This document shows positions 11,131 to 18,780 of a stretch of 64,000 bases of DNA, in pieces. The DNA comes from a virus (taxonomy: Duplodnaviria > Caudoviricetes). The translations under genes were made by a program, and so were the position numbers. The stretch covers positions 40,796 to 104,795 of IMG/VR virus record IMGVR_UViG_3300012983_000035; one strand, written 5' to 3'. The notes below the pieces were generated by a model. The model made no database searches, had not been told where the DNA came from, and saw only the letters and a program-made list of their open reading frames with translations. Every line of letters starts with the position of its first letter. Within the stretch, counting starts at the first letter, position 1.

Positions 11131-14100
11131 ATGATTGTTATAAAACGAGATGGTAGTAAATCTGAGTTTGATAAAGAAAAGATATTTACTGCTATATCTA
11201 AAGCGAACGATTCGATTACAAAGAAAGCAAACAAGATCACTAAAAAAGAAATAGAAGAAATAACGGATGAGATTGCTAAAGCTTGTGAAGATATTAAATC
11301 TGATAAAAATCGAACTGTAGAAGCAATCCAAGATCTTGTTGAAGAAAAGCTAATTGAACGACAAAAGGTTAAATTAGCTAGAAATTATATTGCTTATAGG
11401 GAAGAAAGAACAAGGATTCGTAATAGAAGTAATACCCTATATAAAGACGTATTTTCTAAAGCATTTGCTAAAAATATTGAAAATCAAAATGCAAATGTTG
11501 ATGAAGCATCTTTTGGTGGAAGAAAAGGTGAAGCTGCTAACGTAATGCTTAAACGTTTAGCTTTAGATGAAGTTATATCTGAGAAATATAGAAAGAATCA
11601 TGAAGAAAATCGTATTTATATTCATGATCTAGATTCTTATCTTCTTGGCATGAGCAATTGTTTAAGCGTTCCATTTGATAAGATTCTTGCTAATGGTTTT
11701 AATACTAGACAGACAGATGTTAGACCTGCTAGCAGTATAAGTACAGCTTTCCAACTTGTAGCGGTAATCTTCCAATTACAATCTTTACAACAATTCGGTA
11801 AACCAAAGAGTATCTGCCGAATCAAAACCTTGTGAACTCACAAATGTGAGGTGTTTCTTTATGTAAATAGAGAAGCTAACGGTCAACTAAATCGAAAGAT
11901 TAAGGTGGTAAGAGAGCCTAAGTCCTATTTATAGGATACGGTAATACCGTGTTAAGAAGATATACTATTATTCTCTTAATGTATCGACTATCGAAAGCAT
12001 AGCTAAGAAGAAATATCTTAGTGAAGAAGCGAGTAGAGTACACGATTAGATGAAACTCCTACGTGGAAGTGCAAGGATGTATATGTGTTTATATACATAA
12101 GATATAGTCAGGCTTTATAGAAATATAAAGGATAGAACTGGGATGTTCTGCTACACACCTTGACACAACTATGGTTCCGTATGTAAGAAAAAGTTTTTTC
12201 AAACATTACATGACTGTTATGGATATTGTTCCATTTGTTAAAGAATCGTGGTTGGATAAAAGCGTTAATAAAAACTCATCAAAAGATATATCTATTGATG
12301 ATGAAATATATAAAGGTAAAAAATGGTTTAACTTTATCAAACGATATGTTTGGAATAAAGCAATGAAATTGACTGTAAGGGAATTGAACCAAGCTATTGA
12401 GGGAATGTATCATAACCTTAATACCTTACAGTCGCGTTCTGGTGCGTTTAATCGCCTAGTAGCATAGAGATATGTTACCGTAAACGGGCAAAATCGGTGA
12501 AGTCTAAGTGATTTTATATCATATGATAATACCGAGGTAACTTGAGATATTGCGAATAGGATCTTAAGTACCGTAGAGCGTAGGAGATGAATAAATATAA
12601 TTCTCCCAAGAGTGTCCGTCACCAGATATTATAGATATCTGTGAGTTGGAATGATTACCAACAATACCTAACGTTAAACGAGGGTGAAAATGTACGCCGA
12701 GCTTATAGGAAACTATAAGAACTAGAGGATAAAAAGCCTTTAGGATAACAAATCTGAATCAGTTGCCTTTTACTTCAATTAACTATGGTCTCTGTACTTT
12801 AACAGAAGGACGCATGGTTACAAAAGCTCTCTTAGAGGGCAGTTTAAAAGGTGTTGGTAAATTCCATAAAACACCTATCTTCCCTTGTGGAATATTCCAA
12901 TATAAACAAGGGGTAAATGATAAACCTGGTACTCCTAATTATGATTTAAAGAAACTTGCTATCAAATCTACTGTTAGACGTTTGTATCCCAATTACGCAA
13001 ACTGTGATTGGTCTGTAAACGATTCTGCTATTGATTATGATAGAGTTACAAAAAGAGAAATCATTAGGAATATTAGAGATAATGATAAAGATACATATGA
13101 TAAACTTGTAAAATTCTTTACTGAACATTACGACATTTGTAAATATCTTCGTCTTGAATTAGTTGATAGTGGAACTGAAATTGGAATAATCGATGAAGTT
13201 CAACCTGATGAAGACATGGGAACCATAAAACCTGTGGCCTAGAACAGTGATGTTCTATGGAAAAACTTGCCTAAACATGGGAACGCTTGTGTTATTTACG
13301 TTCGAACACAAGTCAATCGTGTGTTAAATTTGATATCGTATTAAAATAAAATGTCTCCTTGACGTATTTGTAGAAGGGGATGTATATTATGAAAGAAGAG
13401 ATATGGAAATCTGTTAAGAACCATGAAGATTACTATGAAGTTAGTTCAGATGGGCGAGTTCGTAGTAAAATTAGTGGTAAGATCGTTGTTGGAGATGTAA
13501 ATGCGGTCGGTTATAAACGAGTCACTTTATATGTGCCGAAAAAAGAAAGAGTGTTTGTTCATAGATTAGTAGCATCGCATTTTGTAGAAGGTGAAAATGA
13601 TGGGTTAGTTGTGAATCACGTTGATGGTTGTAAAACTAATAATTCTGCTGAAAACCTTGAATGGGTTACTAGATCTGAAAACGATAAACACGCGTTTCGT
13701 CTTGGTTTAAGACACCCTAATCCACCAGAATATAAACATAAATACATTTTATATTCAAGAGATACAGGTGAGGTCTTAACACATTATACAACATCCATAG
13801 ATTCAGCAACAGATTTGAATGTGACTAGATCTAGAGTTTATAACAGAGCCAATAAAGATCAGAAATTTGGACCTAATGGTAATTTAGGTTTGATATTAGA
13901 AACTGATAAGACTATTGATGATCTTATAAATTCTGGAATTCTTAAATCTGAAACTGAACCGGTTACTCCATACGATATTAATAAAAACTAAACGACTATC
14001 GAAAGCATAGCTAAGAAGAAATATCTTAATGAAGAAGCGAGTAGAGTAGAATCAAGTGATTCGAAACGGCAAGGGTCTCACAGAGGTTAATACAATGTGA

Positions 14101-15586
14101 GATCGTGATATAGTCTAACCTGGATAGTGATATCCAGAATAGTTACAATTTGTGACTTAACGTAAGTGTAACGAGCTTGCGGAATAACTCTGAAGAAGGG
14201 GTTGTAGAACGTATAATGGAGCAGATGTTAATTTTAGTAAATCTTTCGAATACAATTTGGAATTGGCAGCTAGTGGAGAAACAGATTTATCAAAATATGA
14301 CGATTGTGTTTCAGCTGCGTTGAAAGATGGGCGAGGAAATATTGCCCCTAATACAATAATTTTACCTACCGCAGCAATGGAATGTAAAACAGGTAAAATC
14401 AAGTTATCGGACGATCTTATCGAAAACTTTATGTTATATCTTGATCAATTGATTCATGAAGCAAAAGATGAATTGATTGAACGATTTGAATATATTTGTT
14501 CACAATCAGAAGCAGCAGCAAAGTTTATGTATGAGAATAGAACTTTCGTAGGATATATTCCTAGTGAGGGTATAAGATCTGCATTACGACATGGGACTTT
14601 GGTTATTGGACAAATTGGTTTAGCTGAGACTTTAAATATTCTTATTGGAAAAGATCACACTACTTCTGAAGGAATGGAATTAGCTAAACGAATTGAGAAC
14701 CTTTATAAGAAAAGATGTGCTCAATTTAAAACAGAGTATAGCTTAAACTTTGGTGTGTATTATACGCCTAAAATCTGTGGGCGTCATATGAGTAATCATA
14801 TGTATAAAACTACGTTAAACGGGCTGAATGTAATAAATTGGTAAGAAAGGCTAAACTTTAATAAAAGCAAGCTAACCCCGTAGGATAGAACAATATGAGT
14901 TCTGTTCTCTAACGACTATCGAAAGCATAGCTAAGAAGAAATATCTTAGTGAAGAAGCGAGTAGAGTAGAATCAAGTGATTCGAAACGCGTAGCTCCAAT
15001 AGATTAGTAACAGATTTATTGGATGATTATATAGTCTAATCCTCTTTTAAATATCGGGAAACCGAAGGTATAATAAAAGGCAGAAAATCTATGCTATACA
15101 TCTATGACCAAGTTTAAGAAAGCTTATGGTGAGATTGAAAATGTAAGCGATAGAAAATACTTTACAAATAGTATGCATGTTCCAGTATGGAAACAAATGT
15201 CACCTTTTAATAAGATTGACATTGAATCTGAATTAACAGGTTATTCTTCTGGTGGATGTATAACTTATGTAGAGGTTGATGAAAACGCTGCTAGAAACGA
15301 AACAGTTGTTGAACAAATTATCGATTACGAAATGAAAGAAAAGGATATCCCATATGCCGCTGTGAATTTGCCTAATAAGACTTGTAGAAAATGTGGTTAT
15401 TCAGGTAAAATGGCAGGTGTAAATGGTGATGTTTGTCCTACATGTGGATCTAGTGAGATCGATGAATTAGGACGTATCACAGGTTATTTATTTGGAACGG
15501 TTAACCAAGCTAACGCAGGTAAACAAGATGAATTTAAAGATCGTGTAGATCATACTGATTCATTGGTTGGATGGGCTAGACATTAA
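11131..15586 (+). CDS. nrdD: Anaerobic (class III) ribonucleotide reductase, 5 exons: 11131-11799, 12141-12443, 12757-13226, 14199-14769, 15080-15586 (839 aa spliced)
   Basis: ATP-cone (VIKRDG), IYIHDLD, QQFG|GCSATHLD, SRSG|NQLPFTSINYG, TM|GCRT, YYTP|AENLC, YFTNS, CxxC..CxxC and glycyl-radical GRITGYL; exons sum to 2520 nt in frame. Confidence 0.95.
11800..12140 (+). mobile_element. Group I intron 1 in nrdD (ORF-less, 341 nt)
   Basis: 5' exon ends in U; P1 ttcggt/gccgaa with U.G pair; P7 GACTA(11986)/TAGTC; terminal G at 12140. Confidence 0.92.
12444..12756 (+). mobile_element. Group I intron 2 in nrdD (ORF-less, 313 nt, variant P7)
   Basis: Exon ends GGT; ends in G at 12756 restoring SG-NQLPFTS; P7 GCGTA/TACGC instead of GACTA/TAGTC. 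Confidence 0.88.
13227..14198 (+). mobile_element. Group I intron 3 in nrdD (972 nt) carrying a homing endonuclease
   Basis: P1 ccat/gtgg with U.G; splits the ATG of TMGCRT; P7 GACTA/TAGTC; terminal G at 14198. Confidence 0.93.
13389..13991 (+). CDS. Intron-encoded NUMOD4-HNH homing endonuclease
   Basis: EIWKSV..YEVSSDGRVRS (NUMOD4); VHRLVA..VVNHVDGCKTNNSAENLEWVTRSENDKH (HNH); SD AAGGGG at 13374-79 favours ATG 13389 over 13380. Confidence 0.92.
   Translation: MKEEIWKSVKNHEDYYEVSSDGRVRSKISGKIVVGDVNAVGYKRVTLYVPKKERVFVHRLVASHFVEGENDGLVVNHVDGCKTNNSAENLEWVTRSENDKHAFRLGLRHPNPPEYKHKYILYSRDTGEVLTHYTTSIDSATDLNVTRSRVYNRANKDQKFGPNGNLGLILETDKTIDDLINSGILKSETEPVTPYDINKN
14770..15079 (+). mobile_element. 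Group I intron 4 in nrdD (ORF-less, 310 nt)
   Basis: P1 acgcct/gggcgt with U.G; P7 GACTA/TAGTC; terminal G at 15079 restores YYTP-AENLC. Confidence 0.93.
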
Positions 15587-16696: not shown

Positions 16697-16828
16697 TTTT
16701 TAGTTATTTGGGATAATTGATTGTATATTATAATTGTGTATGGGAGGACACTATGAACAATTCAAGTTGAATAAACTCTTTAAATTCCAATTATATTAAT
16801 ACAATTGATTATTTAAGGAGATTAAAAC

Positions 16829-17383
16829 ATGTTGTGTGGAAATGAAAAATTATTGGTTGAGATTGTTGAAGATGGATATTTTAAATCTATGACATTGGAT
16901 GATGCTTATGAATTTGTTAAGCAAGGTAAAACAATAAATGTTCAGATTTATAATATATGGAAAAGAACAAAACTGACTTTAGTAGATAAAAGTGCTTTGT
17001 ATAAAAATAAAAAGACATTTTGTAAAATCGTAATAGCAGTTAGTAAAAATGTCCACTATATTGAAAAAGACAGTGAAATTCCATCTTATTTTGAAGATGG
17101 AACTATCGTGTTCATTAAATCTCAACGAATACGTAAAAACACACCGATATTGTTTAACCCTACTACAATGTGGTTAGACAGAAAAGATATTGCTAGTTGT
17201 TACGCTGAATCTGTTGAAAAAGTAAATGTTGATGACATTGATGCTAACTTTTATAAACTTGAAGTAGCTGATGTTGGAAAATTATACTTGGATAATTCGT
17301 ATATTGAATTGTCAGATGGATTCTTGATTAAATCTGATGGTACATTTGAATTTGAACCTGAAGATGAAGAAATGACTGCATAA
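16829..17383 (+). CDS. Stand-alone degenerate Hint/intein-like domain protein
   Basis: LCGNEKLLV (block A-like), VEKV..FYKLEV (block F-like), YIELSDGFLIKS (block G-like, no His-Asn). Confidence 0.5.
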   Translation: MLCGNEKLLVEIVEDGYFKSMTLDDAYEFVKQGKTINVQIYNIWKRTKLTLVDKSALYKNKKTFCKIVIAVSKNVHYIEKDSEIPSYFEDGTIVFIKSQRIRKNTPILFNPTTMWLDRKDIASCYAESVEKVNVDDIDANFYKLEVADVGKLYLDNSYIELSDGFLIKSDGTFEFEPEDEEMTA

Positions 17384-17395
17384 AAAATAAAATAG

Positions 17396-17425
17396 ATAAC
17401 CCGGATTTGTCCGGGTTATTTTTTA
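17396..17425 (+). terminator. Rho-independent terminator
   Basis: ataacccgga-tttg-tccgggttat then T-run. Confidence 0.85.
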
Positions 17426-17520
17426 TAAAATAATAATTACATGTACATTATATTGATTAGAATTTGTTAGTATATGATTTTTTATTTAAACTAAAATATC
17501 ATGTATATATTCTAATTATG

Positions 17521-18005
17521 AATAAAGTGGTGAATTGTGGATAATACAACCCCTCCCACCCAATCTATAATTTCACATACTTTATTAGTCAGAACAAGCA
17601 TAAGTGTAATTCTGGATGTTTACATTTATAAAGCTTGTTCTGATATTTTTTGCGAACGTTGCGTTGGTGCAATATGTGTGTTTCGGATTCATATCGTAGA
17701 TGTACGAATTTATCCACATTATAAAATGCTATATAGAAAGTTCGAATCTTTCCGTTCGCGTGTCTAAAAACAACGTTAATTGTAAACAGTAATAAGTATA
17801 TTTGTATACGTCCTAATTATATTTATGAAGTATCATCAGATATAATTTCTTGGACATTGTATAATTCCGATATATCTTATTAAAAATGTCATATATGTTA
17901 GTTTTTAGAAAAGTCTTGTCTTACTATAAGACTGTTGGTATTGAGGAAGTTTAAGTCGTATTTTCGATTTATTCTTCCTCAATATTCAATCATGGTCTTT
18001 TTTTT
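17521..18005 (+). ncRNA. Putative ~480-nt structured non-coding RNA containing a tRNA-like domain
   Basis: Consecutive long hairpins (17521-17586, 17589-17643, 17763-17909, 17935-17990); promoter-like TATATTCT at 17506; U-run at ~17998-18005. Confidence 0.6.
17652..17760 (+). ncRNA. tRNA-like element with expanded anticodon/variable region, no encoded CCA
   Basis: Acceptor stem GCGAACG/CGTTCGC (7 bp), T-arm GAAAG-TTCGAAT-CTTTC, mini D-arm GCG-TTGG-TGC, discriminator G; 109 nt. Confidence 0.6.
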
Positions 18006-18030
18006 GTTTAAAAAATGAAGGGTTAATGAT

Positions 18031-18780
18031 ATGGGTAAGTTTTATATAAAGCCTAGTGATGAGAGTGAAAATGGCGTTGTTAAACTAGAATATGATAAAA
18101 ATAATATTATTCATTTGGATGATATTCCTGATATCGATTTTGATATGAAGATGACATCAGTTAATGAAAAATATTACAAGTATGTAACAAAGATGTGTCG
18201 ACATACACCAGAATATAGAGATTTTATTCAGTTTATGAAACATAACTTGAATGTAGATCATTGTTCATTTTATGAAGGATATTCTATTAAGAATGGTTTC
18301 ACAATTGAATTACATCACGCTCCATTTACATTGTATGATTATGTGGAAGCCTGCTGTACAAAATCTATGTATAGAAATGGGTGGGTTGAAACATTTAAGA
18401 TATGTGAAGAAGTAATAGCTCTACATTATAGATTTATGGTTGGTTTGACTCCTCTTAATCCAACAGCTCACAAATTAGTGCACTCAGATGTACTTCCTGT
18501 ACATCCTAAGATTGTAATTGGTGATTGGAAATCTTTTTATGGAGAATATAGTGCTTGGTTGAGCGAATCCGCTATAAAGAAATATGAAGATGCTGTCGCT
18601 ATGGAGAAAAAGACTGAGGTTCCTGGTGTTCCTAAAATATTAGAATATGCTCCTACTATTCTTAAGACTAATCTACCTAGACTTACGGAAAAAGATTTGG
18701 ATAAGATGGTTATTGAAAACAAGATAAAGATGTTAGAAGCTAACCAACAGAAATTACAGGAGGATAAAAATGGTATTTAA
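18031..18780 (+). CDS. HNH-like protein (paralog of 25937-26626)
   Basis: R.TPEY..FI.F.K...C...IELHHAPFTLYD...L.PTAHKLVH. Confidence 0.55.
   Translation: MGKFYIKPSDESENGVVKLEYDKNNIIHLDDIPDIDFDMKMTSVNEKYYKYVTKMCRHTPEYRDFIQFMKHNLNVDHCSFYEGYSIKNGFTIELHHAPFTLYDYVEACCTKSMYRNGWVETFKICEEVIALHYRFMVGLTPLNPTAHKLVHSDVLPVHPKIVIGDWKSFYGEYSAWLSESAIKKYEDAVAMEKKTEVPGVPKILEYAPTILKTNLPRLTEKDLDKMVIENKIKMLEANQQKLQEDKNGI

What the first reader, a model, noticed from the sequence alone, without database searches (positions are those of the whole stretch)
17521..18005. ~480-nt multi-hairpin non-coding RNA upstream of an HNH-like gene
Seen: a gene-free region after a terminator, with late (17445) and early-like (17506) promoter motifs. 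It is tiled by long stems: 17521-42/17563-86, tcagaacaagc/gcttgttctga (17589-17643), a tRNA-like domain, tctaaaaac/gtttttaga (17763/17901) and gtattgaggaag/cttcctcaatat (~17938-17985), ending in a U-run. Inference: a large phage ncRNA, conceptually like GOLLD/ROOL-type RNAs, which often associate with tRNAs. Adjacency to the HNH-like ORF at 18031 may be coincidental.
Basis: partly seen in the sequence, partly recalled or inferred. Interest (0 to 1): 0.72.

Follow-up and report, generated by a model that had tools for sequence, protein, structure and literature searches.

The report
Phage small-RNA and tRNA-mimic island
The gene-free 650 bases are real non-coding RNA, but not one giant RNA: they are the shrunken tRNA island of a jumbo phage, holding a ~130-nt small RNA whose hairpin loop copies an uncatalogued small RNA of Treponema (the probable host), a tRNA look-alike with a swollen anticodon arm, and some lineage-specific hairpins.

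Summary
The + strand folds far better than shuffles (z -9.8), and the one ORF in the gap is not conserved in frame.

Comparison with more than 12 related phage loci shows a modular locus, not a single GOLLD/ROOL-like RNA. In relatives the same gap is a tRNA/tmRNA island: one has 8 tRNAs plus a tmRNA.

Only two modules recur across lineages:
1. A long hairpin with a near-invariant C-rich apical loop (CCCCUCCCACCC), placed just after an AR9-type early-promoter-like motif. Its stems covary. In the window, HP1 plus the terminator-like HP2 form a unit of about 130 nt (17520-17651).
2. A tRNA-like element (17652-17760) with a 7-bp acceptor stem, a T arm, and an anticodon loop replaced by an extended arm. 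It fails the Rfam tRNA cut-off.

The C-rich loop is also the loop of a conserved ~80-nt chromosomal sRNA of rumen and gut Treponema. That sRNA has no match in Rfam at gathering score. A model built from it hits 13 of the related phage loci.

The likeliest mechanism is pairing with GGGAGG-type ribosome-binding sites. This is inferred, not shown.

An earlier report of this scan (e1-5641824) reached the same Treponema link on another phage genome. No expression data could be obtained.

The parts
17389..17427 (+). Intrinsic terminator of the upstream gene (16829-17383); marks the 5' border of the island
   Evidence: GC-rich hairpin plus T-run. It is the only piece upstream of 17996 that still aligns with relative L003.
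17502..17514 (+). Early-promoter-like motif (GTATATATTCTAA), about 7 nt before HP1
   Evidence: Resembles the 13-nt feature annotated 'early promoter' in phage AR9. Identical in L023. A T[AG]TATATT motif lies 44-62 nt upstream of the C-rich loop in 9 lineages. Function as a promoter is inferred.
17521..17586 (+). HP1: 22-pair hairpin presenting the C-rich loop (loop 17543-17562, core CCCCUCCCACCC at 17550-17561)
   Evidence: Fold. CCCTCCC occurs once on the + strand in the 104.8-kb record. Best hit of phage model R1 in the window (17.8 bits, E 0.19). Positional orthologues in more than 10 lineages have different stems and the same loop.
17587..17651 (+). HP2: composite hairpin (11-bp perfect outer stem, inner stem, loop with UCUGGAUG) followed by UAUUUUUU; probable terminator of the sRNA unit
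   Evidence: 89% identical in L023. A T-run lies 87-99 nt after the loop motif in W, L023, L003, L042, L051 and L057. The CUGGAUG loop motif is shared with L023 and L003.
17652..17760 (+). tRNA-like element: 7-bp acceptor stem, weak D arm, 'anticodon' stem carrying an inserted hairpin of about 35 nt, long variable region, canonical T arm; no encoded CCA
   Evidence: Rfam tRNA gives 12.9 bits against a cut-off of 29. Compensatory C-G to U-A change in the acceptor stem and U-A to C-G in the 'anticodon' stem versus L023. The positional counterpart in L007 scores 44.7 bits with a 46-nt insertion in the anticodon loop.
17761..17911 (+). HP3: long-range hairpin closed by UCUAAAAAC/GUUUUUAGA; interior is lineage-specific
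   Evidence: The closing stem is kept in L023, but 97 bases of this block are deleted there. No counterpart in other lineages.
17912..17934 (+). HP4: short 8-bp hairpin
   Evidence: 87% identical in L023.
17935..18005 (+). HP5: 15-bp stem (GAGGAAG / CUUCCUC) with an inner hairpin, then a spacer and a U8 run just before the ribosome-binding site of gene 18031
   Evidence: 98% identical in L023, the best-conserved module of that pair. An analogous purine-rich/CU-rich hairpin sits at the same place in L003. Its role (leader or attenuator of 18031, or the 3' end of a processed RNA) was not resolved.

Best explanation
The gap is the reduced tRNA/tmRNA island of an AR9-like jumbo phage, probably of rumen or gut Treponema. 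It encodes several separate RNAs.

Unit 1 (about 17520-17651) starts just after an early-type promoter-like motif. HP1 displays the loop CCCCUCCCACCC, and HP2 with its U-run ends the transcript. The loop copies the apical loop of a conserved chromosomal Treponema sRNA.

The likeliest action (inferred) is base pairing of CCUCCC(A) with GGGAGG-type Shine-Dalgarno sequences. Those sequences sit at the first gene after early-promoter-like motifs in these phages and presumably in host messages. Pairing would repress or time their translation.

Unit 2 is a tRNA-shaped RNA (17652-17760). It keeps the acceptor/T-arm 'top half' read by RNase P, RNase Z and the CCA-adding enzyme, but has no usable anticodon loop. 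It most likely acts as a processing handle that separates the flanking RNAs, or as a tRNA decoy.

HP3 to HP5 are lineage-specific. They may be a processed 3' RNA or the leader of gene 18031.
For: Shown:
- Strong strand-biased folding.
- The region is non-coding.
- In relatives the same gap holds 8 tRNAs plus a tmRNA in L025 (Rfam 93.4 bits) and a tRNA-Gln plus tRNA-like modules in L024.
- One C-rich hairpin and one T-loop/acceptor module occur per locus in six lineages, in either order.
- The hairpin stems covary: 93.5% of cells are paired against 52% in shuffles, and the covariation score is 0.655 against 0.141, with 0 of 500 shuffles as high. Slid controls give 29-45% (the per-lineage pair table is).
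- The same 16-nt loop tops a ~80-nt sRNA with its own promoter-like motif and terminator in at least 37 spirochaete genomes. These are mostly Treponema MAGs from rumen, horse and gut. The gene is syntenic between a PEGA-domain gene and a class A PBP gene.
- Host model R2 hits 13 of the phage loci: L029 at 34.9 bits (E 3e-9), 11 loci at E <= 0.003, plus L004 (E 0.046) and L007 (E 0.09).
- A second motif, CCUGAUGG, is shared by the host sRNA with L003 and L029; L057 has a one-base variant, CUUGAUGG.
- Compensatory changes in the tRNA-like element between W and L023.
- The L007 counterpart passes the Rfam tRNA model with a 46-nt insertion in the anticodon loop.

Inferred:
- GGGAGG ribosome-binding sites lie 10-25 nt after early-promoter-like motifs at W 16742 and 30876, L003 1831 and 7600, L024 940, L026 6264, L028 6746/7627 and L004 8734.
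Against:
- W's own HP1 is a divergent member. Host model R2 aligns only the 12-nt loop core (8.7 bits, E about 1), and phage model R1 gives E 0.19.
- The only perfect complement of the loop in one Treponema genome is the sRNA gene itself. Near-matches are barely above the control count: 41 against 26.
- Only 4 of 13 GGGAGG/GGAGGG sites in the phage record look like ribosome-binding sites.
- Twelve invariant loop bases are more than Shine-Dalgarno pairing needs, which also fits a protein-binding site.
- W versus L023 gives 10 broken pairs against 14 structure-preserving changes on the MFE structure, so parts of the predicted fold are probably wrong.
Confidence: 0.6

Rival explanations
1. The C-rich loop is a protein-binding surface, not an antisense seed. 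The phage RNA would act as a decoy or extra copy that titrates or recruits whatever host factor binds the Treponema sRNA. That factor might be a KH-type or other C-rich-RNA binder linked to the neighbouring cell-wall genes.
For: 12-16 loop bases are invariant while the stems change freely. No long complementary target exists in a Treponema genome. The host gene is fixed next to PBP1A, PEGA and M23 cell-wall genes.
Against: No candidate protein was identified. C-rich loops are a known Shine-Dalgarno-pairing device (own knowledge: RsaE/RoxS, RNAIII). GGGAGG sites sit right behind early-promoter-like motifs in these phages.
Confidence: 0.22
2. Decaying remnant: the island is a dying tRNA cluster. 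The tRNA-like element is a pseudogene and the hairpins are leftover terminators without a function of their own.
For: W has no callable tRNA. W's element scores 12.9 bits on RF00005. Low-threshold ARAGORN assigns different 'anticodons' to W and to L023. The HP3 interior is dispensable. Relatives show every grade from full tRNAs to aberrant ones.
Against: The loop is kept letter for letter across lineages whose flanking protein is only about 50% identical. Stems covary. There are compensatory changes in the acceptor and 'anticodon' stems. The promoter-like motif is conserved at a fixed distance. The loop matches a host sRNA.
Confidence: 0.1
3. One large structured ncRNA of about 480 nt, of the GOLLD/ROOL type.
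For: z -9.8 for the whole stretch. It is adjacent to tRNA-type elements. Relatives of the L003 group carry a 1.8-2.2-kb non-coding block at the same place. That block is more conserved than the flanking gene and shows no codon periodicity.
Against: No Rfam hit even at E 10. There is an internal terminator-like HP2 with a U-run. Module order is inverted in L004 and L019. Compact relatives hold only two modules. 97 nt of HP3 are deleted in L023. There is no sequence similarity between lineages outside the loop.
Confidence: 0.05
4. Cis-acting leader: the whole stretch, or its 3' part HP3-HP5, is the regulated 5' UTR of gene 18031.
For: Same strand and no canonical terminator before 18031. HP5 and the tail are 95-98% identical in L023. 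An analogous hairpin precedes the gene in L003. In L016 the tRNA-like 3' end abuts the start codon.
Against: The C-rich hairpin family occurs in other phages with no homologue of this gene in the stretch fetched. The gene occurs without the gap in AR9, phiR1-37, L031 and L034-36.
Confidence: 0.15

Closest known systems
Unnamed chromosomal sRNA of rumen/gut Treponema
   Same: Same loop core (13 of 16 bases identical in W; all 16 in several relatives), presented on a long hairpin directly after a promoter-like motif and followed by a terminator.
   Different: W's stem is AT-rich and twice as long. Its loop is 20 nt with a different 5' part. The host HP2 (UGCC-UGAUG-GGCA) is replaced by a larger hairpin with UCUGGAUG. 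R2 does not score W significantly. The genomic setting is a phage tRNA island rather than upstream of PBP1A.
C-rich-loop regulatory sRNAs of Firmicutes (RsaE/RoxS, RNAIII hairpins, LhrC). Own knowledge; also named by earlier finding e1-5641824.
   Same: Unpaired C-rich motif in a hairpin loop that can pair with Shine-Dalgarno sequences; the RNA ends at its own terminator.
   Different: No sequence or Rfam relationship. One loop rather than several. Phage-borne. Targets untested.
RNAC and RNAD of the phage T4 tRNA region (PMC3014915; PMC9697503)
   Same: Small stable RNAs of unknown role encoded inside a phage tRNA cluster.
   Different: No similarity was tested or seen. T4 RNAC and RNAD are classed as late RNAs, whereas here the promoter-like motif resembles an early one.
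GOLLD / ROOL large ncRNAs (Rfam)
   Same: Phage-associated, near tRNAs, many hairpins.
   Different: No match. There is no conserved multi-domain core across relatives. The locus is modular.
Bacterial Y RNAs (YrlA), which are tRNA mimics (PMC4201824)
   Same: tRNA-like T arm and acceptor-type helix combined with a long extra helix.
   Different: The topology differs: here the 5'/3' ends form the acceptor stem and the extension caps the anticodon arm. No Rfam hit. No TROVE/Ro60 gene in the 38% of the genome that is held.

Membership tests
tRNA (Rfam RF00005) | Score at or above the curated gathering cut-off (29 bits) | tested here: not met
   W 17696-17760 scores 12.9 bits, E 3.1. Default ARAGORN finds nothing in the window or the whole record. 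The L007 counterpart does pass (44.7 bits).
tRNA (Rfam RF00005) | 7-bp acceptor stem and a 5-bp T stem with a UUCRANY loop | tested here: met
   GCGAACG/CGTTCGC 7/7 and GAAAG-TTCGAAT-CTTTC 5/5. C6-G67 becomes U-A in L023.
tRNA (Rfam RF00005) | 7-nt anticodon loop with a conserved anticodon | tested here: not met
   The loop is replaced by a hairpin of about 35 nt. Low-threshold ARAGORN calls Arg(tcg) plus a 27-nt 'intron' in W but Ser(gga) plus 13 nt in L023.
tmRNA (RF00023) | G3:U70 pair, tag reading frame, Rfam/ARAGORN call | tested here: not met
   W has G3-C70, is 109 nt with no tag frame, and has no hit. A true tmRNA sits at this locus in L025.
GOLLD / ROOL | Match to the Rfam covariance models | tested here: not met
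   No hit at gathering score, or at E <= 10 on 17350-18100. None in L003 or L004 either.
GOLLD / ROOL | A conserved multi-domain core shared by relatives | tested here: not met
   Only two modules recur. Their order varies, HP3 is deleted in L023, and nhmmer finds no similarity between lineages.
   W loop core CCCCUCCCACCCA is unpaired, with 22 enclosing pairs.
   W gives only a local 12-nt match (8.7 bits, E about 1). Its positional orthologues L029, L024 and L033 score E 3e-9 to 0.003; L004 (0.046) and L007 (0.09) score more weakly.
   W has UCUGGAUG in the HP2 loop, not CCUGAUGG. L003 and L029 have the host form and L057 a one-base variant, CUUGAUGG. A terminator-like U-run is present.
Y RNA (YrlA) with Ro60 | Neighbouring or co-occurring TROVE/Ro60 gene | tested here: inconclusive
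   No PF05731 match, but only about 38% of the genome is held.
HNH / beta-beta-alpha-Me nuclease (for the neighbouring gene 18031-18780) | Family HMM match or a clear fold match, with conserved His/Asn/His | tested here: inconclusive
   Pfam gives none; it matches PHROG 12252, which has no known function. The PDB profile search gives none. H95, H96, H147 and H151 are invariant and N143 is nearly invariant in 52 sequences. The AF2 model has pLDDT 88. The top three VIA matches are T5 SciA (Z 5.5, rmsd 4.5, 109 aligned), GVE2 HNH (Z 5.1, rmsd 4.1, 88) and Vibrio endonuclease I (Z 4.8, rmsd 4.2, 124). All are below the level that excludes chance.

The most novel reading that the evidence does not exclude
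Jumbo phages of Treponema have captured or convergently copied the recognition loop of a core host sRNA that sits upstream of the host's class A penicillin-binding-protein gene. They express it from an early promoter, next to a tRNA mimic that serves as a processing handle. This would let them take over the host sRNA's regulon, or titrate its partner, during infection. That would be RNA-level mimicry of a host regulator, and it would also reveal a widespread, uncatalogued spirochaete sRNA family.
Probability: 0.3. Interest if true: 0.75.

Novelty: new variant of a known kind. Interest (0 to 1): 0.6.

Why it matters
Phage-encoded small RNAs are poorly charted, and cases where a phage copies the active loop of a host sRNA are rare.

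This locus links three things:
- an uncatalogued Treponema sRNA family. It had no Rfam match at gathering score in 7 loci, and searches of the held paper library for the loop sequence and for Treponema sRNA terms turned up nothing relevant.
- phage copies of its loop in at least 15 phage lineages, several on contigs of 130-280 kb.
- aberrant tRNA look-alikes that keep only the half of a tRNA read by processing enzymes.

The link also gives a host prediction (Treponema) for an uncultured rumen and gut jumbo-phage clade. It offers a testable route to the function of the host sRNA. It also shows how a phage tRNA island can be reduced to regulatory RNAs.

The same link was already reported by this scan on another phage genome (e1-5641824). 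This window is therefore a second, independent instance, not a first discovery.

Tried and rejected
- **Rfam.** Nothing at gathering score on the whole window. Only terminator-like and microRNA noise at E <= 10 on 17350-18100.
- **blastn against phage records.** No match for the gap or for the L003 block.
- **Exact scan for the T-arm/acceptor string in viral contigs.** Nothing.
- **The search for related loci with single flanking proteins.** Nothing for the 18031 and 16829 products alone. It succeeded with the recombinase and with alignments.
- **tmRNA reading of the tRNA-like element.** Rejected: no G3:U70 pair, too short, no tag frame.
- **Intron-containing tRNA.** Rejected: a 27-nt insert has no known bacterial splicing route, and the 'anticodon' differs in L023.
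- **CRISPR-repeat mimic, type III antitoxin repeat, G-quadruplex/i-motif.** Considered from the sequence only and dropped. The loop is conserved rather than the stem, it is single-copy, and it has only three C tracts.
- **Search for a long antisense target.**
  - In the phage record the best hits are a terminator stem at 8140 and coding sites.
  - In a Treponema genome there is no perfect complement other than the gene itself.
- **nhmmer of the L003-type 1.8-kb block against the other lineages.** Nothing.
- **Enclosing-pair shuffle test of HP1.** Weak for AT-rich stems: W scored 13 of 300. It was replaced by the covariation count.
- **Foldseek of the 18031 model against the PDB.** Nothing at E <= 0.001.
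- **Literature searches for the loop sequence and for Treponema sRNAs.** Nothing relevant.

Full report
**What is there**

Window 17384-18030 is a 647-base gap. Upstream is a 184-aa ORF (16829-17383) that ends at a clean terminator (17389-17427). Downstream is a 249-aa ORF (18031-18780; PHROG 12252, no Pfam family).

The + strand of 17521-18005 folds at -136.7 kcal/mol against -86.1 +/- 5.2 for shuffles (z -9.8). The - strand gives z -6.0.

In 150-nt windows the signal sits at 17500-17650 and 17875-18024. Flanking coding DNA is unremarkable.

The only sizeable ORF in the gap (17537-17767) loses 10 bases in a 94%-identical relative, so it is not coding. Rfam finds nothing.

**Where the window comes from**

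The window lies in a 104.8-kb IMG/VR contig estimated at 38% complete. The product of 18031 has distant homologues in the jumbo phages AR9/PBS1, phiR1-37 and Staphylococcus jumbo phages.

Neighbouring genes are NrdD and NrdG upstream, then a recombinase and an RNA-polymerase beta-type subunit downstream. The same order holds in relatives.

**Relatives**

I collected more than 20 syntenic loci from viral contigs, metagenomes and the protein index.

- The gap upstream of the PHROG-12252 gene varies from 0 to about 3.5 kb.
- In L025 it holds 8 tRNAs and a tmRNA (ARAGORN and Rfam; tmRNA 93.4 bits).
- In L024 it holds a tRNA-Gln plus several aberrant tRNA-like modules.
- More distant relatives (L031, L034-36, AR9, phiR1-37) have no gap.

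So the site is this clade's tRNA/tmRNA island. The window carries a reduced version with no callable tRNA.

**Two recurring modules**

In a 2.6-kb upstream stretch each lineage has exactly one CCCYTCCC motif and one GGTTCRANYC T-loop. Their order is inverted in L004 and L019, where the whole island is only about 230-310 nt.

Outside these two modules the lineages share no detectable sequence. In the closest relative, L023, 97 bases of the HP3 block are deleted, while HP5 is 98% identical.

This argues against one conserved large RNA.

**Module 1: the C-rich-loop hairpin**

In W, L023, L003, L004, L007, L016, L019, L024, L029 and L033 the motif is unpaired in the apical loop of a long hairpin, and the stem sequence differs in every lineage. 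In L028 it sits at the 5' edge of a larger loop.

A scan of viral contigs for the loop found further hairpins on other AT-rich contigs (L042, L051, L057, L067, L082/L104, L107, L113). Three of these contigs are 129-276 kb. The fetched stretches hold no PHROG-12252 homologue. One hairpin lies after two tRNA-Glu genes.

I built a small covariance model (R1) from five of them and counted pairs on its alignment.

| Measure | Observed | Control |
|---|---|---|
| Cells forming a standard pair | 93.5% | 52% in shuffles; 29-45% with slid partners |
| Cells with a change on both sides | 85 | 25.5 in shuffles |
| Covariation score | 0.655 | 0.141; 0 of 500 shuffles as high |

The caveat is that this alignment was fitted to the model. 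The window's HP1 is the top R1 hit in the window, at 17.8 bits and E 0.19.

A T[AG]TATATT motif, like the AR9 'early promoter' feature, lies 44-62 nt upstream of the loop in nine lineages. A T-run follows 87-99 nt downstream in six of them, including W at 17646-17651, directly after HP2.

I therefore read 17520-17651 as a self-contained sRNA of about 130 nt.

**Link to a host RNA**

Thirty-seven of them carry the motif in a hairpin loop followed by GCCTRAT. Of the 27 such loci whose titles I checked, 26 are Treponema or other spirochaete assemblies, mostly MAGs from rumen, horse faeces or gut. One is labelled Anaerovoracaceae.

There the motif is the 16-nt loop of a 76-82-nt unit:
- a promoter-like motif;
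- HP1, with 11 pairs, 8 of which show compensatory changes;
- a small hairpin UGCC-UGAUG-GGCA;
- a covarying terminator.

The gene lies between a PEGA-domain gene and a class A PBP gene in about 15 of 20 species. It has no Rfam match at gathering score in seven loci.

A model of the host RNA (R2) hits the phage loci L029 (34.9 bits, E 3e-9), L107, L057, L067, L082/L104, L024, L051, L113, L042, L010 and L033 (E <= 0.003), and more weakly L004 and L007. L003 and L029 also carry the host's CCUGAUGG element after HP1, and L057 a one-base variant.

The window's own copy is more diverged: a 20-nt loop, an AT-rich stem and UCUGGAUG in HP2. R2 aligns only its 12-nt core, at E about 1. Its membership therefore rests on synteny with scoring relatives plus the shared loop in a hairpin.

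**Module 2: the tRNA-like element**

W 17652-17760 has a perfect 7-bp acceptor stem, a perfect T arm, a weak D arm and an 'anticodon' stem. That stem carries a hairpin of about 35 nt where the 7-nt loop should be.

It scores 12.9 bits on RF00005 against a cut-off of 29. Against L023 the acceptor pair C6-G67 becomes U-A and one 'anticodon'-stem pair U-A becomes C-G. The 'anticodon' that ARAGORN would assign differs between the two.

The positional counterpart in L007 passes RF00005 at 44.7 bits with a 46-nt insertion exactly in the anticodon loop. Acceptor stems differ in every lineage.

So the acceptor/T-arm top half is maintained and the decoding part is not. That fits a processing handle for RNase P or RNase Z, or a tRNA decoy, both by inference. 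It is not a tmRNA: there is no G3:U70 pair and no tag frame. Its topology differs from YrlA Y RNAs, and no Ro60 gene is seen in the part of the genome held.

**Mechanism**

The loop CCUCCC(A) is complementary to GGGAGG-type ribosome-binding sites. In these phages such sites are few. They tend to sit 10-25 nt behind early-promoter-like motifs, at the first gene of a transcript: W 16742 and 30876, L003 1831 and 7600, L024 940, L026 6264, L028 6746/7627 and L004 8734.

This supports translational control of early messages, phage or host, but it is circumstantial.

A Treponema genome holds no other perfect complement of the loop, and near-matches are barely above control. Twelve or more invariant bases also fit a protein-binding site. 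I therefore keep a decoy or protein-binding rival at about 0.2.

**The neighbouring gene**

His95, His96, His147 and His151 are invariant, and Asn143 is nearly invariant, in 52 homologues.

The AF2 model (pLDDT 88) has as its three best structural neighbours T5 SciA, GVE2 HNH endonuclease and Vibrio endonuclease I, at Z 5.5, 5.1 and 4.8. Those values do not exclude chance. Foldseek and sequence searches give nothing.

The gene is not functionally tied to the RNAs.

**Earlier notes of this scan**

First-reader notes on this genome had already named the anti-SD-like loop, the tRNA mimic and the two GGGAGG sites. I checked these.

After I had found the Treponema link myself, a word search showed that a follow-up report on another rumen jumbo phage, e1-5641824, had reached the same conclusion. 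This is a repeat observation on different DNA, not independent proof of function.

**Verdict**

The interpretation as one GOLLD/ROOL-like RNA is not supported.

The locus is a modular ncRNA island made of a host-sRNA-loop mimic, a tRNA mimic and lineage-specific hairpins. Its function is inferred and its expression is untested.

Noticed in passing
L003:2461-4255 (also L008-L014): At the same site, relatives of the L003 group carry a 1.8-2.2-kb block without credible ORFs. It varies less than the flanking protein gene (8-34 against 33-55 variable sites per 100 nt) and shows no 3-base periodicity. It has no Rfam hit at E <= 1 and no similarity to other lineages. It may be a very large structured RNA or a string of diverged RNA genes.
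   Followed up: partly
L025:1395-1770 and L025:1-3286: A relative (63% protein identity) has a full tmRNA (Rfam 93.4 bits; tag ending ...LQAVA) and 8 tRNAs at this locus. This shows what the window's island has lost.
   Followed up: yes
L024:2247-2406: A 160-nt module with a perfect T arm and a G3:U70 acceptor stem (GGGCTTG/CAAGTCC), called neither by ARAGORN nor by Rfam. It could be a miniaturised tmRNA-like or alanine-identity tRNA mimic.
   Followed up: no
L029:2953-3027: ARAGORN at 90% threshold calls a tRNA with anticodon UUA (ochre-suppressor type) next to the C-rich hairpin. L026 and L028 have tRNA-like genes with 4-nt or 2-nt 'anticodons'.
   Followed up: no
L179:5702-5781 and 36 other spirochaete loci (L115-L234): A conserved ~80-nt Treponema sRNA with no Rfam match at gathering score (7 loci tested). 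It usually lies between a PEGA-domain gene and a class A penicillin-binding-protein gene, with an M23 peptidase gene one further upstream in L179.
   Followed up: partly
window 13380-15586: The anaerobic ribonucleotide reductase gene nrdD appears to be in pieces: only the C-terminal 160 aa (15104-15586) matched NRDD. In relative L029 an HNH_3 homing-endonuclease ORF sits between NrdD fragments, which suggests intron or intein-type interruptions.
   Followed up: no
window 16722-16770: An early-promoter-like motif (TGTATATTATAAT) is followed by a strong GGGAGGA ribosome-binding site and a 5-codon mini-ORF (MNNSS), 60 nt before the 184-aa ORF at 16829. In L003 the same GGGAGG site directly serves the homologous gene.
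   Followed up: partly
L016:1725-1916: Here the tRNA-like element is 190 nt long, and its 3' acceptor strand ends two bases before the start codon of the PHROG-12252 gene. Cleavage at the tRNA-like 3' end would leave a nearly leaderless mRNA.
   Followed up: no
G000:C1 about 700-730 (outside the window, about 40 kb upstream): A run of 11 or more C (G on the other strand) lies near the start of the contig, in an otherwise 30% GC genome. It may be an assembly artefact or a terminal feature.
   Followed up: no
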